Below are positions 1 to 60,608 of a stretch of 64,000 nt of DNA, one piece after another. The notes beneath the pieces are model-generated. The model was given only the letters and a program-made list of their open reading frames with translations, was not told where the DNA came from and made no database searches. Both the position numbers and the translations under genes were made by a program. Location: sequence record NZ_CP086601.1. One strand, 5' to 3'. The first letter of the stretch is position 1. Each line of letters begins with the position of its first letter. Source of the stretch: a plasmid.

Positions 1-489
1 CTAGGCGTTCTGCGATGAAGGTTGGATCCCAGCCGGGATTGAAAGTGTCGACGTGGGTGAATCCGAGCCGCTCGTATAGGCCACGCAGGTTTCGGGTGGC
101 AGTCGAGCCGCAGCTTGGCGCACCCCTGCGTTCGCGCGGCATGGCGGCAAGCCTCGATCAGCGCGGAGCTGACACCCCGGCCCGCATGTGTCCGTCGTAC
201 CGCGAGCTTGTGCAGATATGCGGCGCTCCCCCTTGAGGGCGTCGGGCCAGAACTCGGGATCCTCGGCCGACAAGGTGCAACAGCCGACGATGCCGTCGCT
301 GCGACTCGCGACTAGGAGCTCGGATCTCAGGACGAAGGTCTCCGCGAATGTCCGGTCGATCCGCGCGACGTCCCAGGCGGGCGTTCCCTTGGCGGACATC
401 CACGCCGCAGCGTCGTGCATCAGCCGCACAACCTCGTCGATATCACCCGAGCAGGCGACCCGAACGTTCGGAGGCTCCTCGCTGTCCAT
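1..489 (-). pseudogene. class 1 integron 3'-CS orf5 (GNAT acetyltransferase-like). N-terminal 88 aa read in frame from 489; C-terminal part (..LYERLGFTHVDTFNPGWDPTFIAERL, rc of 1-80) is in a different frame, so apparent frameshift near 225; reaches window edge
   Basis: ORF-track protein MDSEEPPNVRVACSGDIDEVVRLMHDAAAWMSAKGTPAWDVARIDRTFAETFVLRSELLVAS.. recognised as orf5 from memory; frame break seen by translating rc of 1-225. Confidence 0.7.
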
Positions 490-626
490 TCGCTCCCCTG
501 GCGCGGTATGAACCGCCGCCTCATAGTGCAGTTTGATCCTGACGAGCCAGCATGTCTGCGCCCACCTTCGCGGAACCTGACCAGGGTCCGCTAGCGGGCG
601 GCCGGAAGGTGAATGCTAGGCATGAT

Positions 627-1454
627 CTAACCCTCGTCTCTGGCGTCGCGACTGCGAAATTTCGCGAGGGTTTCCGAGAAGGTGATTGCGCTTCGCAGAT
701 CTCCAGGCGCGTGGGTGCGGACGTAGTCAGCGCCATTGCCGATCGCGTGAAGTTCCGCCGCAAGGCTCGCTGGACCCAGATCCTTTACAGGAAGGCCAAC
801 GGTGGCGCCCAAGAAGGATTTCCGCGACACCGAGACCAATAGCGGAAGCCCCAACGCCGACTTCAGCTTTTGAAGGTTCGACAGCACGTGCAGCGATGTT
901 TCCGGTGCGGGGCTCAAGAAAAATCCCATCCCCGGATCGAGGATGAGCCGGTCGGCAGCGACCCCGCTCCGTCGCAAGGCGGAAACCCGCGCCTCGAAGA
1001 ACCGCACAATCTCGTCGAGCGCGTCTTCGGGTCGAAGGTGACCGGTGCGGGTGGCGATGCCATCCCGCTGCGCTGAGTGCATAACCACCAGCCTGCAGTC
1101 CGCCTCAGCAATATCGGGATAGAGCGCAGGGTCAGGAAATCCTTGGATATCGTTCAGGTAGCCCACGCCGCGCTTGAGCGCATAGCGCTGGGTTTCCGGT
1201 TGGAAGCTGTCGATTGAAACACGGTGCATCTGATCGGACAGGGCGTCTAAGAGCGGCGCAATACGTCTGATCTCATCGGCCGGCGATACAGGCCTCGCGT
1301 CCGGATGGCTGGCGGCCGGTCCGACATCCACGACGTCTGATCCGACTCGCAGCATTTCGATCGCCGCGGTGACAGCGCCGGCGGGGTCTAGCCGCCGGCT
1401 CTCATCGAAGAAGGAGTCCTCGGTGAGATTCAGAATGCCGAACACCGTCACCAT
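627..1454 (-). CDS. sul1: Sul1 dihydropteroate synthase (sulfonamide resistance); C-terminus ..RDARDEG* differs from the ..RDARDRGLDHA* I remember (one C apparently missing near 640)
   Basis: MVTVFGILNLTEDSFFDESRRLDPAGAVTAAIEMLRVGSDVVDVGPAASHPDARPVSPADEIRRIAPLLDALSDQMHRVSIDSFQ.. start ATG rc at 1452-1454. Confidence 0.9.
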   Translation of the reverse strand: MVTVFGILNLTEDSFFDESRRLDPAGAVTAAIEMLRVGSDVVDVGPAASHPDARPVSPADEIRRIAPLLDALSDQMHRVSIDSFQPETQRYALKRGVGYLNDIQGFPDPALYPDIAEADCRLVVMHSAQRDGIATRTGHLRPEDALDEIVRFFEARVSALRRSGVAADRLILDPGMGFFLSPAPETSLHVLSNLQKLKSALGLPLLVSVSRKSFLGATVGLPVKDLGPASLAAELHAIGNGADYVRTHAPGDLRSAITFSETLAKFRSRDARDEG

Positions 1455-2449
1455 GGCGTCGGCCTCCGCAGCGACTTCCACGATGGGGATCGGGCGAGCA
1501 AAAAGGCAGCAATGACGCCGTGGCACATTGGCGACTTCCACGTGGAAGTTTCACCGGCTCTGTTGCAAAAATCGTGAAGCTTGAGCATGCTTGGCGGAGA
1601 TTGGACGGACGGGTTAATGGCGATTTCGTCGGCTCTGTTGCAAAGATTGGCGGCAGTCAGAGGTAGGCTGTCGCTCTGCGCCGACCAGGCGGCTGCTGCG
1701 AAATGGTGGTTGAGCATGCCCATGGCCTCCGTCAGCGCCGAGGGCCCAATGCCAAAAGCTCTCTCCACAAGGCGCACCTCGCCCCTGATGCCGGGCTGCA
1801 GGCACCAGGGGCGAGCCTGTCCTTTGCGCAGGGCTCGCATGACTTCGAATCCCTTGATCGTGGCATAGGCCGTGGGGATCGATTTGAAACCGCGCACCGG
1901 CTTGATCAGTATCTTGAGCTTTCCGTGATCGGCCTCGATCACGTTATTGAGATACTTCACCTGCCGGTGGGCCGTCTCCCGGTCCAGCTTTCCTTCGCGC
2001 TTCAATTCGGTGATCGCTGCACCATAGCTCGGCGCTTTGTCGGTATTGAGCGTGGCAGGCTTTTCCCAGTGCTTCAGGCCTCGCAGGGCCTTGCCCAGGA
2101 ACCGCTTCGCTGCCTTGGCGCTGCGGGTCGGCGACAGGTAGAAATCGATCGTGTCGCCCCGCTTGTCGACTGCCCGGTACAGGTAGGTCCACTTGCCCCG
2201 CACCTTGACGTAGGTTTCATCCAGGCGCCAGCTCGGATCAAAGCCACGCCGCCAGAACCAGCGCAGCCGCTTCTCCATCTCCGGGGCGTAGCACTGGACC
2301 CAGCGATAGATCGTCGTATGGTCGACCGAAATGCCGCGTTCCGCCAGCATTTCCTCAAGGTCGCGATAGCTGATCGGATAGCGACAATACCAGCGCACCG
2401 CCCACAGGATCACATCACCCTGGAAATGGCGCCACTTGAAATCCGTCAT
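1448..2449 (-). CDS. IS6100 transposase (MTDFKWRHFQGDVILWAVRWYCRYPISYRDLEEMLAERGISVDHTTIYRW..). Expected 254-aa stop position (1685-1687) is TGG here, so the ORF reads through the left IR to a stop at 1448
   Basis: ORF track 1448..2485; start ATG rc at 2447-2449. Confidence 0.8.
   Translation of the reverse strand: MTDFKWRHFQGDVILWAVRWYCRYPISYRDLEEMLAERGISVDHTTIYRWVQCYAPEMEKRLRWFWRRGFDPSWRLDETYVKVRGKWTYLYRAVDKRGDTIDFYLSPTRSAKAAKRFLGKALRGLKHWEKPATLNTDKAPSYGAAITELKREGKLDRETAHRQVKYLNNVIEADHGKLKILIKPVRGFKSIPTAYATIKGFEVMRALRKGQARPWCLQPGIRGEVRLVERAFGIGPSALTEAMGMLNHHFAAAAWSAQSDSLPLTAANLCNRADEIAINPSVQSPPSMLKLHDFCNRAGETSTWKSPMCHGVIAAFLLARSPSWKSLRRPTPW
1557..1614. repeat. 58-bp partial inverted copy of the IS6100 terminus (GGCTCTGTTGCAAAAATCGTGAAGCTTGAGCATGCTTGGCGGAGATTGGACGGACGG), 16 bp left of the complete IS
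   Basis: identical to rc of 2453-2510. Confidence 0.8.
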
Positions 2450-2510
2450 CGTTCCGTCCGTCCAATCTCCGCCAAGCATGCTCAAGCTTCACGATTTTTG
2501 CAACAGAGCC
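1631..2510 (-). mobile_element. IS6100 (IS6 family), 880 bp, 14-bp terminal IRs GGCTCTGTTGCAAA at 1631-1644 and (rc) 2497-2510
   Basis: IRs seen directly; transposase translation matches IS6100 Tnp from memory. Confidence 0.9.
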
Positions 2511-4993: not shown

Positions 4994-5296
4994 TCACGCG
5001 GACCGGCGGTGATCCCCCTCGATCTCGGTCTGGTTCAGGTGCTCGGTCAGGTGCTCGGGCTTGTTCGGCACCAGGAGGTCTTTCAGATCCCGCTTGGCCG
5101 TCTTCGCCAACAACTTCGTCAGGAAGGCGCTGCGGTCTTCACACCCGCACTGGCACCGCGACGGGTTCGAGCACGTGCACCCCCGCAGTTCGTCGACAAG
5201 CCGTTCCACGTTCTCGTGGAGGCGGAAAACGACGCGCTCGGTGGTGTAGCTGTGTCCCTTCGGTCCGCGCTTTCCCACGGCTGCTGATCCTGCCAT
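4994..5296 (-). CDS. small Cys-rich hypothetical protein (..GCTCSNPSRCQCGCEDRSAF..), 100 aa
   Basis: ORF 4994..5491, internal ATG at 5294-5296. Confidence 0.4.
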   Translation of the reverse strand: MAGSAAVGKRGPKGHSYTTERVVFRLHENVERLVDELRGCTCSNPSRCQCGCEDRSAFLTKLLAKTAKRDLKDLLVPNKPEHLTEHLNQTEIEGDHRRSA

Positions 5297-5509
5297 GAGC
5301 GGCAGCCGATTTGGAGGGCGACACGCGGAAAACGTGTCACCCGAATTTCGTGCGTCTGAAAGGGATAGGCGCGCAAGCGCCGGTCGCTGTCGGAACTCGT
5401 TCGGCATCGCTGCTTTGTCCTCCTGTTGGCGCGGCTGCTCGGCGGGACCGGTGTTTCCCGTCACCGTGGCCGCCTCCTGTCCGGCCCGCATTTGGCGCTG
5501 CGGGTGGAA

Positions 5510-5565
5510 GGTGCTGCCGCGCCAACTTCGTTGGCTTGCCTCGTGATTGAGTGCTGGTCAGGTCG
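5510..5565. repeat. dispersed intergenic repeat copy A (GGTGCTGCCGCGCCAACTTCGTTGGCTTGCCTCGTG + tail ..TGCTGGTCAGG) with GCCAAC-TTC-GTTGGC hairpin
   Basis: same element at 14761-14816, 30971-31006 (variant), 56101-56155 (rc). Confidence 0.8.
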
Positions 5566-6115
5566 GCATGGTGGTGACGGCGGTGACGGTCCAGACCGGT
5601 TGTTTGGTGACCGTGACCAGCGTTGCGGCGGTGAACGGCGCGGTGCCGTCGGCGTCGATGCGGGTGACGAGCTTGCGTTGCCAGGTCACATCGGTGTCGA
5701 CGGGGTGCTGCTCGCTGCTGACCTCGGTGGTCGTGCGGATCTCGGCGCGGCGGTCCATCCACTGCTCCCACAGCTGGCGGGGGACCGGGTAGGGCCGGTA
5801 GTCCTGTGCGGCACGGGGTGTCAGCAGGGGCTTGGCGCGGCGTACGGCGGCCTCGGGGCCGGTGTCGCCGTCGGCGGGTCTCCAGTCGAACAACGCGGTC
5901 ACCGCCGCCACGGCGACCGTCTGGGGGTCGTTGCGGTCGAGTTCGGTCCACGGGGCGGGCAGCGGCGGCAGCGGGGCGATGCTGGCTCCGGACGGCACGC
6001 CGGTGCCGTGGTCGTGGTCGTGTTCGCCGAAATCGTCTGCGGGCCTGGAGCAGGCCGCGACGGCGGCGACGGTGAGCGCGAGCAGCGCGGCGGCCAACCG
6101 CTGGCGGTAGGTCAT
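5558..6115 (-). CDS. lipoprotein (signal peptide + lipobox LTVAAVAAC)
   Basis: MTYRQRLAAALLALTVAAVAACSRP..; ATGA overlap with upstream gene. Confidence 0.65.
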   Translation of the reverse strand: MTYRQRLAAALLALTVAAVAACSRPADDFGEHDHDHGTGVPSGASIAPLPPLPAPWTELDRNDPQTVAVAAVTALFDWRPADGDTGPEAAVRRAKPLLTPRAAQDYRPYPVPRQLWEQWMDRRAEIRTTTEVSSEQHPVDTDVTWQRKLVTRIDADGTAPFTAATLVTVTKQPVWTVTAVTTMPT

Positions 6116-6459
6116 CGCGCACCCCCGAAACCGCCGTCGAACAGCAGGTACCCGGCGTAGAGGGTGTAGACGGCGCCGATGACGGCGGTGGTCAGCACGT
6201 AGACGCGCAGCGCGCGGCCGCGGGCACCGGTGGCGGCCGGGTCGGCGAGCTGGATTGCCAGCACCCAGACGACGACACCACCGACCCACCACAGCAGGAC
6301 CGCGGCGGGGTCGTCGGCGCCGCCGGTGAGAGCTGGCACCAGCGCGGGGACGGTGGCGATCACCGCCAGGTGCACCGCGAGCATGGCGCGGCGGACGTGG
6401 CGGTCGATGGCCGCGGCGATCCGTCGCGCGTCCGGTCCGTGTGCTGCGGGTGTGTTCAC
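6112..6459 (-). CDS. small integral membrane protein (3 predicted TM helices), GTG start with GGAGGT RBS
   Basis: VNTPAAHG..MLAVHLAVIATVPALVPALTGG..VLLWWVGGVVVWVLAIQL.. Confidence 0.5.
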   Translation of the reverse strand: MNTPAAHGPDARRIAAAIDRHVRRAMLAVHLAVIATVPALVPALTGGADDPAAVLLWWVGGVVVWVLAIQLADPAATGARGRALRVYVLTTAVIGAVYTLYAGYLLFDGGFGGAR

Positions 6460-30409: not shown

Positions 30410-30645
30410 CCACCACAACGAAACCGGACCCGCTGCCGCGCCGCGTGCCGATGGTCGGCCCACCGCGCCCGCTGGCCGCACCCCCGGATCTCGGCCTGGT
30501 CGCCCGCGTGCTCGAAGGGCTACGCACGCACCCCGAATCAGCCACCTACCAGGACAAACAGGAGACACCGACCATGCACAGCGTGATAGCCGGCAGCGGC
30601 GATGCGACCGGCAAGCACCTGCACGGCCAGGATCACCGTGGGTGA
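30406..30645 (+). CDS. small hypothetical protein (ATGA overlap)
   Basis: MTTTTKPDPLPRRVPMVGPPRPLAAPPDLG.. Confidence 0.3.
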   Translation: MTTTTKPDPLPRRVPMVGPPRPLAAPPDLGLVARVLEGLRTHPESATYQDKQETPTMHSVIAGSGDATGKHLHGQDHRG

Positions 30646-30937
30646 TCGCGACAGCGTGGAGTACTCGACCCGGGCCGGGGCCAGCTCGGCCCGCTGGATC
30701 GTGCGCGGCTCGGTCGTGCACGTACTCGCGATGGTGGACGAACACGGCCGCGTCATCGACATGCAGGACCGGCCGCTGGGGGAGTGCTTCAACGACATGC
30801 CCCGCGCGCTGTGGGAGAAAGTGCGCCAGCAGTTCGAGATCCAGCGCGACCCCGATTTCGCCGCCGTCCTGCACCAGACCCGCGAACGACTCAAGGCCGC
30901 CAGCCGCGCCGCCCGCATCCGCCGTCACCTCTCGTAA
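30638..30937 (+). CDS. hypothetical protein (GTGA overlap start)
   Basis: VGDRDSVEYSTRAGASSARWIVRGSVVHVLAMVDEHGRVIDMQDRPLGECFNDMPRALWEKVRQQFEIQRDPDFAAVLHQTRERL.. Confidence 0.4.
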   Translation: MGDRDSVEYSTRAGASSARWIVRGSVVHVLAMVDEHGRVIDMQDRPLGECFNDMPRALWEKVRQQFEIQRDPDFAAVLHQTRERLKAASRAARIRRHLS

Positions 30938-30970
30938 CCGGCCTCCCGGCTCCGTGCGGGCCCGGTCGAT

Positions 30971-31006
30971 GGTGCTGCCGCGCCCCCTTCGGTGGCTTGC
31001 CTCGTG
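30971..31006. repeat. dispersed intergenic repeat copy C (hairpin variant GCCCCC-TTC-GGTGGC)
   Basis: see 5510-5565. Confidence 0.7.
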
Positions 31007-31676
31007 ACTGTGGCGTGGCGATTACCGGGTGGTCGGCCGTGGCCACGGGAATGGTCGCAGTCCGCCCGCATCGGCGGGGTGTACACCACGCCCTCACACC
31101 CTCGGTGCAAGCACCGGTGCGTGCGGTGACGGCCGCCGACCCGCTGGCACGCGACCGACCCGACCAGGCATCGGTCCCGCCCGATCAGGCTGTGCCCGTT
31201 CGGGCACGTCCGCGGCTGCGGCTCCACCCACCCCGCACGTACCCGGTACAGCCGCCCCGGCTCCACCACCCGCCCGGCCACCTCGTACAGCGGCCGCCAC
31301 TGCTCGCACATGCGTTCGAGTATCGTCGGCGGGGTGATTGCTGTAAATACGCTGGTCCGGATCAGACCGGCCGCCGTCTCGCGCTTCCGCGTGCTCGACA
31401 TCGACGGCGACCACGCCACCATCGAGGCCGCCGACGACGTGCCCGGCCGCTATCCCTTCCGGATGCGGCTCGCTGACCTGATCCCCGACGACCAGGCCGC
31501 CACCACCCCCGACTACCACAACGGGTACAAGTCGAATACCCCTTAGCCTCGGCAAAATCCACAAGCTCAGCACGTTTCCACACAACACTTCGTGTTGAGG
31601 AGAGTTGTCGCGATCCAGCCATAGACTCGGCCCCGCAGCGCTCTGCTGCCGATTCTGAACGCTGGGAGGAACACAG

Positions 31677-32360: not shown

Positions 32361-33163
32361 CCCCAGATACAGAGCAGCCCCCGGCTGCCGTAGCTACACC
32401 GAGGGCCAGACCGGCTGTCCGAGATACCTCAGAGGACCGGTTCCTTGCTCGCAAACAAGTTAACACGAAACTCGCCTGGAATCATCCGCCCGCCCCGGCG
32501 GTCACGCGGTATCACTGCTCACCCGATCCGGGGCCTAATCGTCACCGGTGACCGCACCCGGCCCGAACACGCCGAACAGAGCAGCCTCGGCGGCGGCCTG
32601 GTCGCCAGCCTGCCGCCACCGCACCGCCGCCACCGTCTCGCGCCCGTACCGGTCGAACAGATCGGCAAGCATCGCGCTCGCCGCCGTCTGGTCGCCGCGG
32701 TGATGCGCGTCCTGCAACCGGCGCAGCTGGTCGAGAATCGCCCGCTCGTCGGCGGCTGAAATCTCGGTCACGCCCCCGCCTCCCTGGCCGACCACATCGC
32801 ATTGACCGCCGCCGAATGAACCCGGCCGTCCTGGTCCCCGCCCATCATGGCCCGCAACCTCCGCGCCGACCGCCGCTGACGCTCCGCCCGCGCATCTGCG
32901 GGGGCGGCCTCCCTACCGCTCGTGGTGCTCAACTCCTCGCGCCCGGTACTCCTACCCGGCACGCTACCCGCCGCATGTCGAAAATTGATTGATTCTTGGA
33001 CAGTTCGGGCCCCAACACGAATGTGATTGTTCGAAGTCGTGTTCAGTGCTGACGTGCGGGTTCGGTTCCGGTTGAAGAGGACTTCGATCATCGGCGTGTC
33101 TCGAACTCCGTTTCAGTAGCGTGCATTTCGCTCGTACTCGTCTTCAGCAAAGGGTGTGCGCGG

Positions 33164-34834
33164 ATGGCCGGGGATTCGTCGGTGGCAGATCGGGGGGTGC
33201 TCACCGCGGAGGAGGCGCGCTGGCAGGTGGCGGTGTGGCGGGCGGAGGTGATCGGCCGTCTGGCGCGGCAGGATCGGGTGAGCGTTGCTGCTGCCGATGA
33301 GGCCGCCGCCGAGCTGGGGGTGACGCAGCGGCAGGTGTATGCGCTGGTGAAGCGGTGGCGGGCCGGTGAGGGGGTGGCGTCGGATCTGTTGCCGCGCCGT
33401 TCGTCGGGTGGCCGGGGTGGTGAGCGGCTGTCTGATGAGGTGGAGGAGATTGTGCGGACGGTGCTGCGGGCGCGGTATCTGACGCGGCAGCGGCGTTCGG
33501 TGGCGGTGATCTGCCGGGAGATCGATCGGGAGTGCAAGGTACGCGGGTTGCGGCCGCCGTCGCGGTCGGCGGTGCAGCGTCGGATCGGCCGCCTGGATCC
33601 GGTGAAGACCGTGGCGGCGCGGGAGGGGCAGGGCGCGGCCCGGTCCCGTAGGCCCGCCAGCGGGGCGTCGCCGCCGGTGACGAGAGTGTTGGAGCGGGTG
33701 CAGATCGATCACACCCCGGCGGATGTGATCGTGGTCGACGAGCATCACCGGCTGCCGATCGGGCGTCCGTATGTCACGGCGGCGATCGACGAGGCCACCA
33801 AGTGCGTGCCCGGGTTCGTGCTCACCCTGGAGGCACCGTCGGCGACCTCGGTCGGCTTGTGTTTGGCGCACATGGCGATCGACAAACGCGCGTGGCTGGA
33901 ACGCATCGGGGTCCAGGCGGTGTGGCCGATGAGCGGCAAACCCGCCCAGCTGTATACCGACAACGCGACGGAGTTCAAGAGCGAGGCCCTGCGTCGGGGT
34001 TGTGACCAGCATGGCATCGCGATCGGCTACCGGCCGCCGGGTGCCCCGCATTACGGCGGGATCGTGGAACGCCTCGTGGGGACGATGATGCGGATGGTCC
34101 ACGAGTTGCCGGGTACGACGTTTTCCGACACTCGCGAGCGCGGGGACTACGACAGCGACGCGAAAGCCGTTCTCACCCTGGCCGAGTTGCAGCGATGGAT
34201 GGCGTTGGCGGTGGCTTGCTATCACGGCGAACCGCACGATGGGCTCGGTGGCCGGACCCCGGGTGGGGTGTGGGCGGAGAAGGTGGCTGCGCAGGGCGCG
34301 CCGCCGACGGTGACGAACGAGACGGCGTTTCTGGTCGATTTCCTGCCGGTGGAACGCAGAGCGTTGCGGCGCACCGGGTTTGTGCTCGATCACGTGCAGT
34401 ACTACAGCGATGCGTTGAAGCCGTTGATCGCGCGGCGGGAGCGGCTGGGGAAGGTGGTGTTGCGCCGCGACCCGCGCGATATTTCCCGGATCTGGGCGCT
34501 GCATCCGGAGACCGGCGAGTATCTGGAGGTTCCGTATCGGACGTGGTCGCGGCCGGCGATCAGCCTGTGGGAGCAGCGGGCGGCGGTGGCGCGGTTGCGG
34601 GAGCAGGGCCGCGCCGAGATCGACGAGAACGCGCTGTTCGCGATGGTCGAGCAGATGCGCCACATCACCGCCGACGCGACCGCGACAAGCCGGCGAGCGC
34701 GCCGCAACACCGAACGCCGCCGAGCGACCCCGGCACGCGGCCGACCCCAGACCCTGCCACCGGCACCACCCGCGCCGACACTGGGCGCGGCACCTGTGGC
34801 GGTGGCACCGTTCGAGGTGATCGAGCAGTGGTGA
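33164..34834 (+). CDS. tniA: TniA/TnsB-like DDE (rve-fold) transposase
   Basis: ..VQIDHTPADVIVVDEH..YTDNATEFKS..; 556 aa. Confidence 0.75.
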   Translation: MAGDSSVADRGVLTAEEARWQVAVWRAEVIGRLARQDRVSVAAADEAAAELGVTQRQVYALVKRWRAGEGVASDLLPRRSSGGRGGERLSDEVEEIVRTVLRARYLTRQRRSVAVICREIDRECKVRGLRPPSRSAVQRRIGRLDPVKTVAAREGQGAARSRRPASGASPPVTRVLERVQIDHTPADVIVVDEHHRLPIGRPYVTAAIDEATKCVPGFVLTLEAPSATSVGLCLAHMAIDKRAWLERIGVQAVWPMSGKPAQLYTDNATEFKSEALRRGCDQHGIAIGYRPPGAPHYGGIVERLVGTMMRMVHELPGTTFSDTRERGDYDSDAKAVLTLAELQRWMALAVACYHGEPHDGLGGRTPGGVWAEKVAAQGAPPTVTNETAFLVDFLPVERRALRRTGFVLDHVQYYSDALKPLIARRERLGKVVLRRDPRDISRIWALHPETGEYLEVPYRTWSRPAISLWEQRAAVARLREQGRAEIDENALFAMVEQMRHITADATATSRRARRNTERRRATPARGRPQTLPPAPPAPTLGAAPVAVAPFEVIEQW

Positions 34835-35742
34835 GTATCGGTGAGCCCGTGGATCTGTCGCATCTGCATCCGTCCGCGCAGCGGCCGGCGATGCTGCCGG
34901 ATGCCGAACGGATTCAGTACGTGCGGGCGGACCGGTGGATCGGCTACACCCGCGCCACCGAGGCCCTGACCGTGCTGGAGGGCCTGCTCACGATGCCGGG
35001 CAAGCAGCGGATGCCGAACCTGCTGCTCATCGGCGCGACGAACAACGGCAAGTCGATGATCATCGAGAAGTTCCGCCGCGACCACCCGCCGGTCTCACAC
35101 GAGGACCGGGAGGAGATCCCGGTGCTGACCATGCAGATGCCCTCGGATCCATCGGTGTCCCGCTTCTACGTCGCGGTGCTGGCCGCGCTCGGGGCGCCGA
35201 TCCGGCCGCGGGCACCGCGGCTGGCCGAGCTGGAACAGCTGGTGCTGCGCCTGTTGCGGGCCTGCGGTGTGCGTGTGCTGGTGATCGACGAACTGCACAA
35301 TGTGCTCGGCGGCCGCGGTGACACGCGCCGCGAGTTTTTGAACCTGCTGCGGTTTCTGGGCAACGAGCTGCGGATTCCGCTGGTCGGTGTCGGCACCCGG
35401 GACGCCTATTTGGCGATCCGGTCGGATCCCCAACTGGAGAATCGGTTCGCGCCGTTCACGCTGCCGCTGTGGGAGCCCGGGGACCAGGCGTGCGCGTTGC
35501 TGGCGAGTTTCGCGGCGTCGTTCCCGCTGCGGCGGTTCTCGCCGATCGCGACCGAGGAGATGGCGTCGTACCTGCTCACCCGCTGCGAGGGCACGATCGG
35601 GGAGCTGACCGCGCTGCTGTCGGACGCGGCGATCGCGGCGATCGAATCCGGGGAGGAGGCCATCAACCAGCGCACCCTGCTGCTGGCGTCGTATGCGGGA
35701 CCGACCGAGCGGCGGCGGATGTTCGAACGCGAGCTGGCGTGA
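34828..35742 (+). CDS. tniB: TniB/TnsC-like AAA+ ATPase (LLIGATNNGKSMI; VLVIDELHN)
   Basis: GTG start overlapping tniA stop. Confidence 0.7.
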   Translation: MVSIGEPVDLSHLHPSAQRPAMLPDAERIQYVRADRWIGYTRATEALTVLEGLLTMPGKQRMPNLLLIGATNNGKSMIIEKFRRDHPPVSHEDREEIPVLTMQMPSDPSVSRFYVAVLAALGAPIRPRAPRLAELEQLVLRLLRACGVRVLVIDELHNVLGGRGDTRREFLNLLRFLGNELRIPLVGVGTRDAYLAIRSDPQLENRFAPFTLPLWEPGDQACALLASFAASFPLRRFSPIATEEMASYLLTRCEGTIGELTALLSDAAIAAIESGEEAINQRTLLLASYAGPTERRRMFERELA

Positions 35743-37124
35743 GCCCAGCACCGCCGCGGCGCTGGCCGCTGCACCCGCGCCCGGGTGCGCTGGAGTCGCT
35801 GTCGTCGTGGCTGAACCGGCTCGCCCGCATCTACGAGGTACCGGTACGGGAGCTGCTGGGACCGAATCTCGGTGTGCTGGTGGGCATCCCGGACGTTCTC
35901 GACGAGGATCCGCCCCCGGCGGTGTTCACCGCGCTGGCCGAACGCACCGGGGTGCCGGCCGCGCAGGTGCGGGCGATGACGCTGCCCGGGTGGGTGCCGT
36001 GGCTGTTGGACGCCTACCCGCTGCCCGAACGTGACGCCGAGGACGGCTTCTACACCTATGTCCGCCAATATTCGGTGCTGCTGGCACCGCGGGAGGCACC
36101 ACGGTTCGAGGTGACCCACCGTCGCCGCTGGCGGGGCCCATGGATTCCCGGGCGCCCGTTGCGGCGATCGTGCCCGCGGTGCGCGGCCGGGCCCGACCCG
36201 GCCCGCGCACTGATCTGGCAGTTGCCGCTCACGGTGAGCTGCCTCGAGCACCGCTGCCGGCTGGTGCTGGACACCGACACCCTCGCGGCCGAGATCGCAG
36301 GCCAGCCCTACCAGCCCGTTCCGGTCGGTGAAGCAGTGGCGGCCCTGGACGGCTACACCCGTCAAGCCCTCATCGATGCCACGGTGCGGTTGCCGGGCCG
36401 CACGATCCACGCCGGGGTGTGGTTCCGGCTGCTGCGCTGCCTGCTCGACGAACTCAGCCTCGCCGGTTCCACCGTCACCCGCGCCTCGCAGCGGCTTCTC
36501 GAACAGATCTGGGACGCGACGGGTGAACCAGTGCGCGCCGGGCTGGCGTTTTGGCAGCCGTACGAGAACCTGGAATGGTCCACCCAGGAGAAGCTGCTGA
36601 CCGCCGCCGCGACAGCACTGATGCTGGCCGCTGACCGGCGCATCCAGCCCCGGGGAACTCTGGCCTGGTTGCTGACCGAACCGCAACCGGTGCCCGTCTA
36701 CGACGGCGACCCACCACGGCCACCGACACCCGACCCGCCCGCACGGCCCCGCCGCGACCTCATGCAGACGATGGACGCCTGGTACGCGCGGGCCTGCATC
36801 GATGCCGACGCCGCCCGCAGCATGCTGCGGCTGCTGACCGCGCTCGATTCGAAACCGGCGCACGCCACCCGGCACCGCGACGTGCTGATCGGTGAGGGCA
36901 TCCCCGTACGATTCCTACGCGAGGATCTGTTGCTGTGCCCAGGCCGGCGCACCCCGGATGAGACCGAAACCCTGCTGGTGGCCGAGGGATTCGATCGCGG
37001 CGATGTGGCCCGGGAACTAGCCTGCTGCGTCGCCGAGGCGAAAGCACTGTGGGATGTGCCGGACGAAGGCGTGCTGATCGACGAGGACGAACTCGGCCAG
37101 ATCCGCACCCGCCTGGAGCTGTGA
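35739..37124 (+). CDS. tniQ: TniQ-like target-selection protein (RWPLHPRPGALESLSSWLNRLA.. ; Cys pairs CPRC..CLEHRC)
   Basis: GTGA overlap with tniB stop; 461 aa. Confidence 0.6.
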   Translation: MSPAPPRRWPLHPRPGALESLSSWLNRLARIYEVPVRELLGPNLGVLVGIPDVLDEDPPPAVFTALAERTGVPAAQVRAMTLPGWVPWLLDAYPLPERDAEDGFYTYVRQYSVLLAPREAPRFEVTHRRRWRGPWIPGRPLRRSCPRCAAGPDPARALIWQLPLTVSCLEHRCRLVLDTDTLAAEIAGQPYQPVPVGEAVAALDGYTRQALIDATVRLPGRTIHAGVWFRLLRCLLDELSLAGSTVTRASQRLLEQIWDATGEPVRAGLAFWQPYENLEWSTQEKLLTAAATALMLAADRRIQPRGTLAWLLTEPQPVPVYDGDPPRPPTPDPPARPRRDLMQTMDAWYARACIDADAARSMLRLLTALDSKPAHATRHRDVLIGEGIPVRFLREDLLLCPGRRTPDETETLLVAEGFDRGDVARELACCVAEAKALWDVPDEGVLIDEDELGQIRTRLEL

Positions 37125-38269
37125 CCGTGCCCCGATGGCCGGTACACCCGCGACCGGGGCCGATCGAATCGTTGTCGTCATGGCTGGAACGGCTCGCGAT
37201 GGTCTATCACCTGCCGGTGAAGGTGCTGCTGGAGGATCTGTGCGCCGACTCCGGGCTGAACATACGCATGATCTCGTCCCAGGTGCACGATCCGCCGCGA
37301 GCGATCCTGGTCGCGCTCGCCGACCGCACCGGCGTCCCGGTACCCCGGCTGGCGACGATGACCCTGTCCGGCTGGGTGCCGTGGCTGGTCGACAAACAGT
37401 GGCCGCGCGATTTCGAGCAGCAGGAGATGTTCGACAACTACGTGGGCCGCCACTCGGTGTTGCTGCTGCCCGGGACCATCGACCGCGACATCGCCCGCCG
37501 CACCAAATCCCGATGGGACGGGCCCTGGCTGCCGTACCCGCGCAGGCCGCGGGCCTGCCCGGTCTGCGCCACCGACCCGGACTCCGGCCGCGCGCTGGTG
37601 TGGGATCTGCCGCTGATGATCAGCTGTGTCACCCACCGCTGCCGCCTCGAACGCGCCGGCGCCGTCGCGATCGGCGACATCGCGGCCCCGGCCGCGGTGG
37701 ACGAGACGGTCACCACGATGGACGGCTACACCTACCAAGCACTCACCACCGGATTGGTGCGACTGCCGGGCCGCACCGTGCACGCCGGGGTGTGGTTCCG
37801 ACTGCTGCGCTGCCTGCTCGAAGAACTGTGCATCTCCCGCCTGGCGTGCAGCGCCCGCACGGGCGCGACACTCGAAACAATCTGGGAGACAATCGAACTC
37901 CCGATGCGCGGGCGGATCGCGATGCTGGAGCCCTACGAGTGCCTGGACCCCGAGACCCAGGAAACGCTGCTGCGCGCCGCGGCGCTGGCGCTGCGACTCG
38001 CAGCGTTGCGGCGCATTCCCGCGCTCGGCGAATTCGGGCCCGCCCTCGTACCGGCCCGGTGCCGGCCGGGCTCACCCGGGAACAGCCCGGTGCCGCCGTA
38101 CGCGCCGCCGCGTCGCCACCTGCTGAATCCGCCCCGCTGGTGGCCCGCCGCCCCGGTGCAGGCCGGACCACCACGGGACTGGTCACAGGTCGCTCGCCGT
38201 TATGCGCTCGAGCGAGGGTTCCCGGCATGGGTCTTCGGTGGGCTCACCGACGAACCCGGACTCGACTAG
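37121..38269 (+). CDS. second, paralogous TniQ-like protein (RWPVHPRPGPIESLSSWLERLA..; CPVC..CVTHRC)
   Basis: GTGA overlap with first tniQ; N-terminal about 300 aa colinear with upstream TniQ. Confidence 0.55.
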   Translation: MTVPRWPVHPRPGPIESLSSWLERLAMVYHLPVKVLLEDLCADSGLNIRMISSQVHDPPRAILVALADRTGVPVPRLATMTLSGWVPWLVDKQWPRDFEQQEMFDNYVGRHSVLLLPGTIDRDIARRTKSRWDGPWLPYPRRPRACPVCATDPDSGRALVWDLPLMISCVTHRCRLERAGAVAIGDIAAPAAVDETVTTMDGYTYQALTTGLVRLPGRTVHAGVWFRLLRCLLEELCISRLACSARTGATLETIWETIELPMRGRIAMLEPYECLDPETQETLLRAAALALRLAALRRIPALGEFGPALVPARCRPGSPGNSPVPPYAPPRRHLLNPPRWWPAAPVQAGPPRDWSQVARRYALERGFPAWVFGGLTDEPGLD

Positions 38270-39564
38270 CTGCCGGGGTGATCTGGGCACACCAGCCCAG
38301 CGTCGGTGGTTCGCCAGCGGCGCACCGACAGCCAGCGCCGGACCAGTGCCGGGATTTCGCCGGTGTCGCGGAATTCGGTGGCGTAGATGCCGGTGAGCAG
38401 GGGACCGCCGCAGTTGCACGCCGCGCATTCGATGTCGGCGATCGGCACGTCTCGGGGGCGGCACCGCTGGCAGTGGCGGGCCTCGATGAGGCCGCCGTCG
38501 TCGGCCGGTTCGAGCCAGACGACCTTGATGTCTTGCAGGAGTCGTCCGCGCTCGGAGGTGTCGGTGGTGGTGTAGCCGCAGATATCGTTTGGGCAGACCG
38601 CGGGAGGCTCGGGCAGGTTCATGCGAGCGGTCTGCTTGAGCCGCCACGCCAGATTCGGCCGCTCGCGCGCGAACTCCCGTGTGCTGCTGCTGATTTCAGC
38701 GTGTTCGCTGGCACCGTCGTCGTCCGCAGGTAGCGGCCGGACGGGATCGGGTTCGGGTGCGAGGCCAACGAGGTCGACCAGGCTGTTCGGTGCCGACTCC
38801 GCCACTATTGGCGTGGTGCCGCCCGGGGATCGGGGTCGGCCGTCGGCGGGATCACCGGCGGGGATATCGAGGGTTTGCGGTGTGGCGGTCGCGGTAGTGG
38901 TCGGTACGGCGTCCGGTGCCGGGTCTGCCGTGTCGACCTCTGCGGTGGTCGGTGCGGTGGTCGTGTGGGGTGGGTCGGCGGGGCCGGAGCGGGGCCGGGT
39001 GCCGATGCTGTTGCGGTCGAGGTGGCCGTAGAGGGTGCCGCGTTTGACGCCGAGGATGTCGGCGATCTGCTGGACGGTGTGACGGCCCTCGTCGTAGAGG
39101 CGCTGGGCCTGCTCGATCTGGTGGACGGTGAGCTTCGGCCGGCGGCCGCCGGTGCGACCGCGCGCCCGGGCGGCCTCGAGGCCGTCGCGGGTGTTGGCGA
39201 TGATCAGTTCCCGCTGGAACTCCGCCAGCACCGACAGCATGCCGAACATGGCGCGGCCTTCGGCGGTGTCGGTGTCGATGCCCTGTTCGAGGACTTTCAA
39301 CCCGATGCCGCGGGTGCGGAGATCGGCACCGAGGTTGACCAGGTGCAGCATCGACCGCCCGAGCCGGTCCAAGCGGGTGATGACGATGGTGTCGCCGGTG
39401 CGGGCGATCGTGAGCACGAGATCGAGTTTCGGGCGCGACGCCTTCGCGCCACTGGCAGTATCGATGTGGATGTCGGTCTCGCCGACTCCGGCGCGGCGCA
39501 GGGCGTCGATCTGGTGGGCGGGGTTCTGCTCGGCGGTCGACACCCGCCCGTAGCCGATCAACAT
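38266..39564 (-). CDS. tniR: serine recombinase (resolvase/invertase catalytic domain MLIGYGRVSTAEQ..) with about 280-aa C-terminal extension rich in Cys motifs (CPNDICGY, CQRC, ECAACNCGG, CPDH); convergent and 4-bp overlapping with tniQ'
   Basis: ORF 38266..39687; start chosen at conserved MLIGYGRVST. Confidence 0.6.
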   Translation of the reverse strand: MLIGYGRVSTAEQNPAHQIDALRRAGVGETDIHIDTASGAKASRPKLDLVLTIARTGDTIVITRLDRLGRSMLHLVNLGADLRTRGIGLKVLEQGIDTDTAEGRAMFGMLSVLAEFQRELIIANTRDGLEAARARGRTGGRRPKLTVHQIEQAQRLYDEGRHTVQQIADILGVKRGTLYGHLDRNSIGTRPRSGPADPPHTTTAPTTAEVDTADPAPDAVPTTTATATPQTLDIPAGDPADGRPRSPGGTTPIVAESAPNSLVDLVGLAPEPDPVRPLPADDDGASEHAEISSSTREFARERPNLAWRLKQTARMNLPEPPAVCPNDICGYTTTDTSERGRLLQDIKVVWLEPADDGGLIEARHCQRCRPRDVPIADIECAACNCGGPLLTGIYATEFRDTGEIPALVRRWLSVRRWRTTDAGLVCPDHPGS

Positions 39565-39584
39565 GATGTCGAAAATAGCCGAAA

Positions 39585-39700
39585 TATGGTTTGCCGACGT
39601 TGATTCCCGGCACGGGTTTCCGACACTCGTGTCCTGGTGTTTCTCCCGCTCACGCAAGGTTGTCGGCAAATGATCGTTTTCCGACAACCGCCATCCGGGT
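39585..39700. promoter_or_regulatory. cluster of four TTT(G/C)CGACA / TGTCGGCAAA repeats upstream of the recombinase gene (res and/or TniA-binding end repeats)
   Basis: 39591-39598, 39617-39626, 39661-39672 (rc), 39677-39686. Confidence 0.4.
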
Positions 39701-54591: not shown

Positions 54592-55325
54592 CTTGACGTG
54601 CCCGCGGTCGTGCCCCTCGGCTTGATCTCGGACAGCTCCGACAGATCCAGCCGCACCAGCCGCGCGTCATCGACCGCATGGAGCACCCACAGCTTTTCCG
54701 GGTGGTCGGCCTCGTGCCCGAGTTGCCGCCACGCCTCTGCTACCACCCGCCCGGCCCGCTTGGTCGTCAGGTACAGAATCCACGCCACCTGTTCCGGGTT
54801 GCGCAGCCTGGCGGCGTGGGAGTCGAGCACGGTTTTCAGCTTGCGGCCCGATTTCGGGGTCAGCTCGATCTCGACCAGGCCCACAGTGTCGTCCGGGAAC
54901 CACACCATCAGATCCGCGAGCGCGGCGGCCGGCGCCAGCGGTTTGTCCGCCGTCACCGCCAGCGGGCCGCCACCGGCGGCCGGGTGGTCGAGCAGCGTGA
55001 TTCCCGACTTCCGGCCGGATGCGAGCCACAGCGAGAACTCGGCCGCCAACAGATCGTGCGCCAGCTCGCGCCGCGCGAGCCGATAGGGCCGCTCCGCGGG
55101 CCAATACACCTTGTGCTGACGGCCGTGGCTGAGAAACGCCGATCCCAGCACGCCCGCGTTCTCCAGCTTGATCACCCGGCGGGAAAACAACCGCTGATCC
55201 AGCTCGTCACCCCCGAAATGGCCGTACGCGGCGCGCAGCGCCGACGACGACGCTACACCGACCTCACGCAGCCATCCGAGCACCTGAATATCACGCTCGG
55301 TCAGATGAACATTCGCGACTGTCAT
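54588..55325 (-). CDS. hypothetical protein with N-terminal winged-helix-like domain (possibly replication-relaxation type)
   Basis: MTVANVHLTERDIQVLGWLREVGVASSSALRAAYGHFGGDELDQRLFSRRVIKLENAG.. Confidence 0.45.
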   Translation of the reverse strand: MTVANVHLTERDIQVLGWLREVGVASSSALRAAYGHFGGDELDQRLFSRRVIKLENAGVLGSAFLSHGRQHKVYWPAERPYRLARRELAHDLLAAEFSLWLASGRKSGITLLDHPAAGGGPLAVTADKPLAPAAALADLMVWFPDDTVGLVEIELTPKSGRKLKTVLDSHAARLRNPEQVAWILYLTTKRAGRVVAEAWRQLGHEADHPEKLWVLHAVDDARLVRLDLSELSEIKPRGTTAGTSR

Positions 55326-55978: not shown

Positions 55979-55989
55979 GATCCGAACCT

Positions 55990-56790
55990 AACTCCCAGAA
56001 ATGAACGCGATCAGCCGAGCATAAACACCCGCCAATACTACCCCGAAAACAGTCCGAAAACGAACACCAAAACGCCCCAACAAACGAATCACACCCACAT
56101 GAAGCAACCAGAAAACCATCACGTGGCAAGCCAACGAAGTTGGCGCGGCAGCACCACACGTAACGCGAAGATACCGCCACGGAAACGGGCGACCAACACC
56201 CAAAGAACCACCACCCGCGACGCGGTAGCGGCGCGGCGGAAAGACGACGCCGAAGGCGTTCCAACGAAGCGGTGGGGGAGGGTGCGCAGCCGCCCTCCCC
56301 CACCGCTGAGCCGGGCCCACGGATGTGGGACCGCGCCGCCACAGGCGGCGCACTGCCAGCCCCTCCGGGGAGGGGCGCAGGCAGAGGGGAGGGGAACCCC
56401 CTTCAAGATTGAACGGGGGCAGGGGGAAGTTGATGGTTTTGGTGTTGTGTGCCTGGCGCGTGATACGGAGCTTGCGGAGTATCGCTTACGCGCCAGGCAC
56501 ACAACACCAAAACCTCTTACCCCCATTCAGAACACCCCAGTGTTCCCAGGTGGTTTCCCGCCCGCCCCCCGCCGCTGGTTTCCCAACCATCCCCGATCAG
56601 CACGCTTTTCGCTGATTGGGGGTGGTTGGGAAACTGGAGCCTGCGACAGAAGCGGCGGGGGGCGGGCGGGAAACCACAGGTCAGCGCCTCGCGCTGACCT
56701 CAAACCGTGGGGGTAAGAGTGATGTATCGGGTGATGTACGCGCAGGCGTACCTAATCATCACCTGATACATCACCCTATACATCACCCGT
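55990..56790. promoter_or_regulatory. origin-like structured non-coding region: CA-rich G-poor stretch (55990-56230), repeat copy D (56101-56155), 15-bp GC stem (56267-56306), perfect 26-bp inverted repeat (56435-56460 / 56489-56514), nested 25-bp perfect IR (56552-56576 / 56651-56675) around an inner 24-bp IR, then GTGATGTA iterons (2 direct at 56719 and 56731, 3 inverted at 56756, 56767, 56778)
   Basis: sequence inspection. Confidence 0.5.
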
Positions 56791-60371: not shown

Positions 60372-60608
60372 TGTTCGCGGTGTTCACAGCGAACAGCGAA
60401 CACGCCGCAGCGGCGTGTTCGCGCGTCCGCCGTGTTCACTGGCCGTGTTCACTCGTTCGTTCGTGTTCACTGCCCCGGACGCGCCCGATCGTCGCCCGCG
60501 CGTTCGGTGGGCTCGTCTGCTCTCCCCCGCGGTGAACACAGCGAACGCGGCCACCGGTGTGTCCGGCGGCCGCGTTCGGTCGTTCGCTTGGTGTTCGGTT
60601 GGTCGCGT

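What the first reader, a model, noticed from the sequence alone, without database searches (positions are those of the whole stretch)
5510..5565. Dispersed 36-55 bp intergenic repeat with conserved hairpin, four copies
GGTGCTGCCGCGCCAACTTCGTTGGCTTGCCTCGTG (plus a looser ..TGCTGGTCAGG tail) occurs at 5510, 14761, 30971 and, reverse-complemented, at 56120. All copies are intergenic. The core folds as GCCAAC-TTC-GTTGGC. Copy C has CCAAC changed to CCCCC and GTTGG changed to GGTGG, which largely preserves pairing, so the stem-loop rather than the primary sequence may be selected. Orientation relative to local transcription is not constant, so the element may act at the DNA level or be a miniature mobile/REP-like element.
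Basis: seen in the sequence. Interest (0 to 1): 0.6.

Follow-up and report, generated by a model that had tools for sequence, protein, structure and literature searches.

The report
Conserved hairpin repeat on Nocardia plasmid
The four-copy repeat is real and belongs to a widespread, uncatalogued family of small hairpin repeats (like the REP repeats of E. coli) with fixed flanks and a freely co-varying stem; on this Nocardia-type conjugative plasmid it sits mostly just after gene ends, and its function is still inferred.

Summary
There are exactly four copies: 5510, 14760 (not 14761), 30971 and 56120-56155 on the reverse strand. None is expected by chance, and a covariance model scores them 40-48 bits against 13.5 for the next hit.

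The window is a ~70% GC Nocardia-type conjugative plasmid. The element is neither an IS6100 end nor an end of the resident tni transposon.

Its anatomy is CTGCCGC, a 6-8 bp stem, a TNC loop, the return stem, then TTGCC. Flanks and loop are fixed while the stem co-varies:
- Over 25 stem variants occur in Nocardia plasmids, genome contigs and 124 metagenome loci.
- 73 of 124 loci are fully Watson-Crick at the three unconstrained pairs, far above shuffled controls.
- Single mismatches are 21 A.C against 4 G.T, so the reverse strand folds (GGCAA-stem-GNA-stem-GCGGCAG).

At two orthologous sites the 27-nt core is identical in four plasmids whose flanks are 60-80% identical. Relatives carry one copy, or an inverted pair, just downstream of relaxase genes. 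In some metagenome contigs two copies form the tips of terminal inverted repeats of 250-510 bp MITE-like units.

Best reading: a REP/REPIN-like hairpin module under selection, probably acting in mRNA 3' ends. It is not a canonical terminator. A single-stranded DNA role is not excluded.

The parts
5510..5545 (-). Copy A. The folding (reverse) strand is the minus strand (model hit 5511-5543 -). It lies 12 nt after the stop (TCA at 5558-5560) of minus-strand gene 5558-6133 and 19 nt before the ATG (5491) of minus-strand ORF 4994-5491.
   Evidence: The orthologous copy has an identical 27-nt core in three relatives.
5493..5560 (.). Extended tract shared between A and B in this plasmid only. The upstream 17 nt and the TGCTGGTCAGG tail resemble copy B more than they resemble the A-type flanks of related plasmids. 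This suggests gene conversion between copies.
   Evidence: family D3, 57 nt, 89%; comparison of flanks (inference).
14760..14795 (-). Copy B. It lies between two T4SS-operon genes: 11 nt after the stop of 14807-15403 (198 aa) and about 30 nt before the TTG start of 13932-14729 (265 aa). The folding strand is in sense with the operon.
   Evidence: The same site is occupied in N. wallacei pFMUON74 (8011), Nocardia sp. NBC_01388 plasmid (15374) and the N. salmonicida contig (L095) with an identical core.
30971..31006 (-). Copy C. The stem variant is GCCCCC/GGTGGC. It lies between convergent genes 30602-30937 (+) and a minus-strand zinc-ribbon-like gene, whose ORF (30925-31422) reads through the element.
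56120..56155 (+). Copy D. The folding strand is the plus strand, opposite to A-C. It lies at the edge of an ~800-nt conserved, repeat-rich noncoding region between gene 55322-55978 (-) and lsr2 (56783-57175, -).
   Evidence: The region is conserved in two relatives, where this copy is shortened or degenerate.
60494..60512 (.). Possible degenerate remnant (GCCCGC-GCGTTCG-GTGGGC). It sits where related plasmids carry a full copy, downstream of the 412-aa gene 60609-61847. A hairpin is kept but the flanks are lost.
   Evidence: It is not detected by the model, so this part is weak.

Best explanation
The repeat is one member of a large family of small hairpin modules. These are REP/REPIN-like, and in some genomes they form the tips of MITE-like units.

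The unit is about 33-36 nt. On the strand that folds it reads 5'-GGCAA-[6-8 bp stem]-GNA (rarely GNNA)-[stem]-GCGGCAG-3'. The single-stranded flanks, the closing C-G pair and the G..A of the loop are fixed. The rest of the stem is free to change as long as it pairs. This implies that a trans-acting factor reads a folded single strand, not a duplex.

Shown:
- The family exists and is widespread.
- The stem co-varies and the folding strand is the reverse one.
- Conservation stops sharply at the CTGCCGC side.
- On this plasmid family the copies are under purifying selection at orthologous intergenic sites.
- Three of the four window copies put the folding strand in sense immediately after the end of a gene.

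Inferred:
- On this plasmid the hairpin most likely works in the mRNA. It would act as an intercistronic or 3'-end hairpin that blocks 3' exonucleases or marks a processing or pausing point, setting relative expression of neighbouring cistrons as E. coli REP elements do.
- It would not act as a canonical intrinsic terminator.
- The same module is probably also the substrate of an unidentified enzyme that disperses or homogenises copies. This would explain the inverted doublets, the MITE tips and the A/B homogenisation here.
For: Reality and family:
- Four copies, 0 expected by chance; model separation 40-48 bits versus 13.5 bits.
- 3-5 copies in each related 60-kb plasmid, and element-like matches in 11 Nocardia plasmids in PLSDB, all under no annotated feature.

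Covariation:
- Stem variants include GCCAAC, GCGAGC, GCCAGC, GCCGAC, GCCGCC, GCCGGC, GCCTGC, GCAAAC and GCCCTCCC.
- In an unbiased metagenome scan, 73 of 124 loci are fully Watson-Crick at the three free pairs.
- 23 of 63 distinct cores are fully paired, against a shuffle mean of 2.8 (maximum 10 in 2000 shuffles). There are 25 distinct stems.

Folding strand:
- Single mismatches are 21 A.C/C.A (G.U on the reverse strand) versus 4 G.T and 6 other.
- Loops TTC, TCC, TGC, TGTC and TCGC read GAA, GGA, GCA, GACA and GCGA on the reverse strand.

Selection:
- The 27-nt core is identical in 4 plasmids at each of two orthologous sites, while flanks are 60-80% identical.

Position:
- A and B lie 11-12 nt after stop codons in sense.
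- C lies about 9 codons after the conserved part of a protein ends.
- In relatives a copy overlaps the DUF397 gene stop, and copies lie 20-45 nt after the stop of the convergent gene in the MOBP relaxase-family plasmids.
- In metagenome loci the gene on the 5' side of the folding strand is co-directional in 31 of 47 cases (p = 0.04, rough gene calls).

REP/MITE character:
- Inverted doublets 12-105 nt apart occur in pPE-7, Nocardia sp. NPDC057663 and the N. asteroides plasmid.
- Copies form the tips of ~100-bp terminal inverted repeats of 250-510 bp units next to ordinary chromosomal genes.
- A and B are homogenised within this plasmid.
Against: - No transcript data exist. The RNA-level role is inferred from position and from wobble tolerance, and G.T pairs are also tolerated in DNA hairpins.
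- Copy D has the folding strand antisense to its neighbours. The fifth copy of N. wallacei pFMUON74 lies upstream of, not after, a gene.
- The orientation bias in metagenomes is modest (66%, p = 0.04).
- A C-GNA-G triloop is, to my knowledge (Hirao et al., 1990s), exceptionally stable in DNA rather than RNA. That favours a single-stranded DNA form.
- The hairpin is weak (-6.5 to -8 kcal/mol, not better than shuffles), so it is a poor exonuclease barrier on its own.
- No RAYT-like or other transposase was found next to any copy.
- No target-site duplication is evident at the MITE-like units.
- Perfect conservation of the stem sequence within the 60-kb plasmid family suggests a sequence-specific partner that was not identified.
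Confidence: 0.45

Rival explanations
1. It is a single-stranded DNA site used in plasmid DNA processing. The reverse-strand hairpin with its fixed flanks would be recognised on the transferred or lagging strand. One possibility is a priming (ssi) site for complementary-strand synthesis, in the manner of RSF1010 ssiA/ssiB or phage G4 oric. Another is a site for a relaxosome or ParB-like protein.
For: - In Nocardia genomes the element appears only on plasmid-size contigs.
- Within each 60-kb plasmid most copies share one strand. The odd one lies in the iteron-like ori region upstream of rep in N. wallacei pFMUON74, or in the conserved hairpin-rich noncoding region in the window.
- In plasmids carrying an MOBP-type relaxase, a single copy lies 200-400 nt beyond the relaxase gene. 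If transfer polarity is as in RP4 (an assumption), that places the folding strand on the transferred strand, near its 3' end.
- Copies abut MOBF relaxase genes.
- The C-GNA-G loop is the classic stable DNA mini-hairpin (own knowledge).
- The stem sequence is perfectly conserved within a plasmid family.
Against: - The same module occurs next to ordinary chromosomal genes (MFS transporter, PLP enzyme, FtsX, hydrolases) and as MITE tips in metagenome contigs. A plasmid-specific role cannot be general.
- No relaxase or primase was identified in the window.
- The transferred strand of this plasmid family is unknown.
- 'Same strand' is confounded with 'sense', because most genes share one strand.
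Confidence: 0.22
2. The copies are inert relics of a mobile element: solo tips of a MITE or IS family. They would have no function for the plasmid and would be kept similar only by recent spread or gene conversion.
For: - Conservation stops sharply at the CTGCCGC side, and copies form terminal-inverted-repeat tips with 5'-TG...CA-3' ends in metagenome units.
- Decayed copies exist at the D-type site in relatives and at 60494-60512 in the window.
- Flank variants are plasmid-specific: GGTG in all four window copies, GGG in relatives.
Against: - Orthologous A-type and B-type copies keep 27/27 identity across four plasmids whose flanking DNA is only 60-80% identical. That is far beyond neutral expectation.
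- The sites are orthologous rather than newly inserted.
- No matching transposase or autonomous element was found.
Confidence: 0.15
3. It is an ordinary intrinsic (possibly bidirectional) transcription terminator placed after genes and between convergent genes.
For: - It is a GC-rich hairpin after stop codons and between convergent genes.
- Inverted doublets would form a ~27-bp hairpin in RNA.
Against: - There is no U-tract in either orientation (UUGCC on one side, GCGGCAG on the other).
- Mycobacterial RNA polymerase requires a U-tract (PMC3993855).
- Conserved hairpin motifs of this kind (TRIT) overlap only 2-4% of mapped 3' ends in M. tuberculosis (bioRxiv 10.1101/2022.06.01.494293).
- The stem is weak.
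- Copy B sits inside the T4SS operon.
- Fixed flanks and loop are not expected of terminators.
Confidence: 0.1
4. It is a duplex-DNA operator or centromere-like site for a plasmid regulator (KorB- or ParB-style dispersed palindromes).
For: - It has a 15-bp palindromic centre, several dispersed copies per plasmid and intergenic positions.
Against: - Stems co-vary freely while pairing is kept, which duplex-binding proteins do not require.
- The mismatch asymmetry, 21 A.C versus 4 G.T, marks a single folding strand.
- The flanks are not symmetric.
- No promoter-like hexamers appear at a consistent spacing (reading).
Confidence: 0.05

Closest known systems
REP / BIME / REPIN elements of Gammaproteobacteria (mobilised by RAYT transposases)
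   Same: - About 35-nt imperfect palindrome with a conserved single-stranded foot.
- Intergenic, often within ~15 nt of stop codons.
- Occurs as singlets and as inverted doublets.
- One strand carries the recognised hairpin.
- REP is known to affect mRNA stability and translation of the upstream gene.
   Different: - The flank motif is different (CTGCCGC/TTGCC, not GTAG).
- No RAYT gene was found nearby.
- Copy number here is 1-5 per plasmid rather than hundreds per chromosome.
- The stem sequence varies between lineages far more than the flanks do.
- The hosts are Actinomycetota and GC-rich soil bacteria.
TRIT, the conserved 'Tuberculosis Rho-independent terminator' motif of Mycobacterium (Gardner et al. 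2011, PMC3152330)
   Same: - A sequence- and structure-conserved palindromic motif clustered tightly at gene ends in the same order (Mycobacteriales).
- It lacks a U-tract.
- Its authors also inferred an unknown binding factor.
   Different: - TRIT is chromosomal (147 copies), centred around -8 from the stop, and reported as restricted to Mycobacterium.
- I could not obtain its consensus, so homology is untested.
- Later 3'-end mapping found little termination at TRITs.
MITEs with structured terminal inverted repeats (e.g. Correia elements of Neisseria)
   Same: - In some metagenome contigs two copies are the outermost ~27 nt of ~100-bp terminal inverted repeats.
- These bound 250-510 bp non-coding units next to housekeeping genes.
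- The termini read TG...CA.
   Different: - The window copies are single 36-nt units, not inverted-repeat-bounded elements.
- No target-site duplication or parent IS was identified.
Plasmid single-strand initiation sites (RSF1010 ssiA/ssiB; phage G4 oric)
   Same: - About 40-nt hairpin with essential single-stranded flanks, read on one strand only.
- Copies lie on opposite strands near an origin.
   Different: - No cognate primase is known here.
- Copies lie inside operons and, in other organisms, on chromosomes.
Integron attC sites
   Same: - Structure is conserved and sequence is variable in the stem, with fixed outer motifs.
- One strand folds.
- They are found after diverse cargo genes.
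   Different: - There are no RYYYAAC/GTTRRRY cores as a rule, no integrase and no cassette arrays.
- The element is much shorter.

Membership tests
REP/REPIN (RAYT-associated) | Short (20-40 nt) imperfect palindrome in intergenic DNA, typically near 3' ends of genes | tested here: met
REP/REPIN (RAYT-associated) | Occurs as inverted doublets able to form a long hairpin (REPIN/BIME) | tested here: met
   Doublets occur in pPE-7 (L249 6005-6031 / 6046-6072), L086 and the N. asteroides plasmid. There are none in the window itself.
REP/REPIN (RAYT-associated) | Linked RAYT (Y1/HUH transposase) gene flanked by inverted copies | tested here: not met
   Pfam scans of ORFs next to copies in plasmids, genome contigs and metagenome loci found none. 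The sampling was limited.
REP/REPIN (RAYT-associated) | Conserved GTAG-type tetranucleotide at the 5' foot | tested here: not met
   The foot is CTGCCGC / TTGCC.
REP/REPIN (RAYT-associated) | Tens to hundreds of copies on the host chromosome | tested here: inconclusive
   The host chromosome is not available.
MITE | Terminal inverted repeats bounding a short non-coding unit | tested here: met
   Met only for metagenome units L257, L263, L309, L322, L286 and others. Not met for the window copies.
MITE | Target-site duplication and a parent IS with the same ends | tested here: not met
   No consistent duplication appears at unit borders. The IS6100 inverted repeat (I1) and the resident tni transposon end are unrelated.
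Canonical intrinsic terminator | Stable GC-rich hairpin immediately followed by a 7-9 nt U-tract | tested here: not met
   The sequence shows UUGCC or GCGGCAG after the stem. The stem is -6.5 to -8 kcal/mol and no better than shuffles. The U-tract requirement is from PMC3993855.
TRIT (Mycobacterium) | Match to the TRIT sequence/structure model | not testable with these tools
   The consensus is not given in the accessible text. No Rfam family matched.
ssi / primase recognition site | Strand-specific hairpin with essential single-stranded flanks | tested here: met
ssi / primase recognition site | Placement on the transferred strand or at oriV, with a cognate primase | tested here: inconclusive
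   One copy lies in the N. wallacei pFMUON74 ori region. The transferred strand and the primase of this plasmid are unknown.
Integron attC | RYYYAAC...GTTRRRY core sites, cassette arrays, nearby intI | tested here: not met
   Only the canonical stem GCCAAC/GTTGGC resembles the cores, and other variants do not. The sul1 segment at 1-1513 is a separate import.
Any Rfam 15 family | Score at or near a family's gathering threshold | tested here: not met

The most novel reading that the evidence does not exclude
The module is the recognition site of a so-far unknown single-strand-specific system in Actinomycetota. An enzyme or RNA/DNA-binding factor would read GGCAA-hairpin(GNA)-GCGGCAG. Conjugative plasmids would have co-opted this site at fixed positions (inside the T4SS operon, beside relaxase genes, at the origin) for DNA processing during transfer or replication. 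The same site would drive a family of MITE-like elements elsewhere.
Probability: 0.2. Interest if true: 0.7.

Novelty: new variant of a known kind. Interest (0 to 1): 0.5.

Why it matters
Actinobacterial conjugative plasmids are poorly understood, and most genes around these copies have no assigned function. A 27-nt element held identical at orthologous sites, while neighbouring genes drift to 65-80% identity, marks something these plasmids need.

The family is large, is absent from Rfam, and has an unusually clean signature: fixed flanks and loop, a freely co-varying stem, and strand-specific wobble. That makes it a tractable handle for finding the factor that reads it.

If the role is in mRNA, it would be a REP-like layer of operon control in Mycobacteriales, where canonical terminators are scarce. 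If the role is in single-stranded DNA, it would bear on how these plasmids prime or process transferred DNA.

Practically, the element is also a recombination hot spot. A and B have been homogenised here, on a plasmid that has acquired sul1/IS6100 from Gram-negative sources.

Tried and rejected
- **Promoter reading.** No -35/-10 pair at consistent spacing in either orientation across 11 aligned copies. The 'TGGTCA' tail is the upstream gene's stop-codon context, not a -10.
- **Short peptide.** A GTG...TGA 11-codon frame exists in window copies A and B but not in relatives.
- **Coding explanation for the covariation.** In the metagenome subfamily the reverse strand reads GK(P/R/L)P..ARQ, but ORFs spanning the element are short and inconsistent.
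- **Resident transposon ends.** The IS6100 inverted repeat and the tni end (TGTCGAAAATTG..., 32977) are unrelated.
- **Relaxase link in the window.** The 165-aa and 681-aa genes downstream of A are not MobC- or relaxase-like by BLASTP, Pfam, NCBIfam, PHROGs or PDB sequence search.
- **Rfam.** Nothing was found for the window, for copy A at a permissive threshold, for the IMG/VR region or for the metagenome modules.
- **Shared upstream region.** An nhmmer profile of the 270-nt IMG/VR region matches Nocardia plasmids only over the element itself.
- **Literature.** Searches by sequence string and by Nocardia plasmid keywords gave nothing relevant.
- **Scan limits.** Genome-wide copy numbers therefore could not be obtained.
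- **Fold energy.** It does not distinguish the element from shuffles.

Full report
**1. Observation**

The 36-mer GGTGCTGCCGCGCCAACTTCGTTGGCTTGCCTCGTG occurs four times:
- 5510-5545 (+), exact;
- 30971-31006 (+), 3 mismatches;
- 56120-56155 (-), 1 mismatch.

None of 100 dinucleotide-preserving shuffles gave a match. A covariance model built later from 44 diverse relatives finds exactly these four at 40-48 bits. The next hit scores 13.5 bits.

A and B share a longer tract of 57 nt at 89%, plus the TGCTGGTCAGG tail.

Copy C carries GCCCCC/GGTGGC. One pair is compensated and one becomes C.T.

The hairpin is not unusually stable: -6.5 to -7.9 kcal/mol, z -0.1 to -1.5.

**2. Setting**

The window is ~70% GC.

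Positions 1-2510 are the sul1 segment plus IS6100, 99.7% identical to enterobacterial plasmids.

The rest is a Nocardia-type conjugative plasmid. It is 78% and 76% identical over the T4SS region to N. wallacei pFMUON74 and to a Nocardia sp. NBC_01388 plasmid.

GC3-based gene calls and homology place the copies as follows:
- **A** lies 12 nt after the stop of minus-strand gene 5558-6133 and 19 nt before ORF 4994-5491.
- **B** lies inside the T4SS operon, between the 198-aa and 265-aa genes.
- **C** lies between convergent genes. The minus-strand ORF 30925-31422 reads through it. That protein's match to phrog_12017 ends about 9 codons before the element.
- **D** lies at the edge of an ~800-nt conserved noncoding region beside lsr2.

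The flanking proteins have no Pfam, NCBIfam, PHROG or PDB assignment.

The window also carries a Tn5053/Tn402-like tni module. Its end sequence is unrelated to the repeat.

**3. The element elsewhere**

- pFMUON74 has five copies and the NBC_01388 plasmid has three plus a shortened one.
- BLAST of the 36-mer finds element-like matches in 11 Nocardia plasmids, all outside annotated features.
- A genome-collection scan was mostly noise. It did recover true copies on 55-124 kb Nocardia contigs, in Micromonospora chromosomes and in actinomycete MAGs.
- IMG/VR has five contigs with a GCAAAC/GTTTGC variant.

**4. Anatomy and covariation**

All copies fit CTGCCGC-[stem]-T(N)C-[stem']-TTGCC.

The stem changes by compensatory substitutions. 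Variants include GCCAAC, GCGAGC, GCCAGC, GCCGAC, GCCGCC, GCCGGC, GCCTGC, GCAAAC and an 8-bp GCCCTCCC.

In the metagenome set, complementarity at three stem pairs was not imposed by the search. There:
- 73 of 124 loci are fully Watson-Crick;
- 23 of 63 distinct cores are fully paired, against 2.8 expected from shuffling arms (maximum 10 in 2000 shuffles);
- there are 25 distinct stems.

Where exactly one free pair is not Watson-Crick, it is A.C or C.A in 21 cases, G.T in 4 and other in 6. A.C on the written strand is G.U on the complement. So the strand that folds is the reverse one: 5'-GGCAA-stem-GNA-stem-GCGGCAG-3'.

The loops agree. TTC, TCC, TGC, TGTC and TCGC become GAA, GGA, GCA, GACA and GCGA.

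In the window the folding strand is the minus strand for A, B and C, and the plus strand for D.

**5. Selection**

At the A-type and B-type sites the 27-nt core is identical in four plasmids. The adjoining 120-300 nt are 60-80% identical.

That is not neutral, and these are orthologous sites, not fresh insertions.

The few bases outside the core are plasmid-specific. All four window copies have GGTG...(T/A)CGTG, while relatives have GGG... with variable tails.

In the window, A's flanks resemble B's rather than the A-type flanks of relatives. This points to gene conversion between copies.

**6. Context**

- Read on the folding strand, A, B and C lie in sense just past the end of a gene.
- So do most copies in relatives: overlapping the DUF397 stop, about 90 nt after the 412-aa gene homologue, and 20-45 nt after the convergent gene in relaxase-bearing plasmids.
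- In four plasmids whose relaxase belongs to the MobA/VirD2 (MOBP-type) family, a single copy lies 200-400 nt beyond the relaxase gene.
- In pPE-7, the Nocardia sp. NPDC057663 contig and an N. asteroides plasmid, inverted pairs abut TrwC/MobF relaxase genes.
- The fifth pFMUON74 copy is on the other strand, in the iteron-like region upstream of rep.
- In metagenome loci the gene on the 5' side of the folding strand is co-directional in 31 of 47 cases (p = 0.04, rough gene calls).
- Neighbouring genes there are ordinary and diverse.

**7. Link to mobile units**

In several metagenome contigs two copies in inverted orientation, 250-510 bp apart, are the outermost part of ~100-bp terminal inverted repeats. 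These bound ORF-less units with TG...CA termini.

In another subfamily the element ends a ~200-nt conserved noncoding module. Conservation stops exactly after GCGGCAG. The far end of that module carries a degenerate complement of the flank.

No transposase was found beside any copy. No clear target-site duplication was seen.

**8. Interpretation**

The features point to a REP/REPIN-like module read as a folded single strand. These features are:
- fixed single-stranded flanks and loop with a free stem;
- a single folding strand;
- singlets and inverted doublets;
- tips of MITE-like units;
- positions at gene ends.

On this plasmid family the module is clearly maintained by selection.

The most economical role is in mRNA, as an intercistronic or 3'-end hairpin affecting stability, processing or coupling of neighbouring cistrons.

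It is unlikely to be a canonical terminator. There is no U-tract, and mycobacterial RNA polymerase needs one (PMC3993855). The analogous conserved TRIT motif of Mycobacterium (PMC3152330) coincides with few mapped 3' ends.

A single-stranded DNA role remains a serious rival. This could be a priming site or another conjugation or replication site. The evidence for it:
- plasmid restriction within Nocardia;
- proximity to relaxase genes and to an origin;
- a C-GNA-G loop typical of stable DNA mini-hairpins (own knowledge);
- strict conservation of the stem sequence within the family.

A duplex operator is excluded by the covariation and the strand asymmetry.

**9. Verdict**

It is an uncatalogued, widespread hairpin family with strong covariation, conserved at fixed sites on Nocardia conjugative plasmids.

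Its kind (REP/MITE-like structured repeat) is known. Its architecture, its distribution and the unknown factor that reads it are not.

Function is inferred, not shown.

Noticed in passing
window 1-2510: The class 1 integron 3' segment (qacEdelta1/sul1) and a complete IS6100 with 58-nt perfect inverted repeats (1555-1612 / 2454-2511) are 99.7% identical to enterobacterial and Pseudomonas plasmids. They are embedded in a 70% GC Nocardia-type plasmid, which indicates a recent cross-phylum import of sulfonamide resistance.
   Followed up: partly
window 10580-11629: There is a perfect 750-bp tandem duplication (at least 300 nt at 100% identity). It duplicates part of the SCO6880-family T4SS gene, giving ORFs 9821-11296 and 11321-12046.
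   Followed up: no
window ~32977-39700: A Tn5053/Tn402-like transposition module is present: a Mu-type transposase (33164-34834), two tandem TniQ paralogues (35469-37124 and 37135-38733, with internal 105-119 nt repeats) and a serine resolvase (38266-39687). Its end begins TGTCGAAAATTG at 32977.
   Followed up: partly
window 48252, 49738, 51991, 52783: Four copies of a different 40-nt intergenic repeat contain the palindrome CCATAGTACTATGG. They lie among small minus-strand genes next to a ParB-N-domain protein (49893-51551). This looks like a set of operators for one repressor.
   Followed up: no
window 55980-56790: An ~800-nt noncoding region beside lsr2 is conserved in three plasmids. It contains an AC-rich stretch, several GC hairpins with GNA loops on the plus strand (e.g. 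ACGCC-GAA-GGCGT at ~56245-56260), and two long inverted repeats (56435-56514 with 27-nt arms; 56550-56677 with 36-nt arms). It is a candidate oriT, single-strand origin or large noncoding RNA.
   Followed up: partly
window 60380-60620 and 61960-62003: An array of GTGTTCAC / GCGAACA repeats lies downstream of the 412-aa gene. A 44-nt perfect palindrome lies between that gene and parA (62044-62922). Together they are a candidate centromere or operator region of the partition locus.
   Followed up: no
IMG/VR loci L146 370-640, L151, L196, L202, L204: A ~270-nt conserved noncoding region with compensatory base pairs in at least two hairpins ends in a copy of the element and is followed by a Shine-Dalgarno sequence. 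It has no Rfam match and no match in the phage collection.
   Followed up: partly
metagenome loci such as L301, L324, L256, L290 (alignment A7): A ~200-nt conserved noncoding module ends precisely at the element's GCGGCAG and lies next to diverse cargo genes (hydrolases, HIRAN, YkuD, restriction-enzyme domains). It has no Rfam match and may be a separate MITE-like family sharing the same tip.
   Followed up: partly
L250 (N. asteroides plasmid CP082845) 3168-10895: Two relaxase genes of different families (a MobC plus MobA/VirD2-type relaxase pair, and a TrwC/MobF-type relaxase) converge on one 550-nt spacer that holds two copies of the element. A Tn7-like tnsA/tnsB pair lies next door.
   Followed up: no
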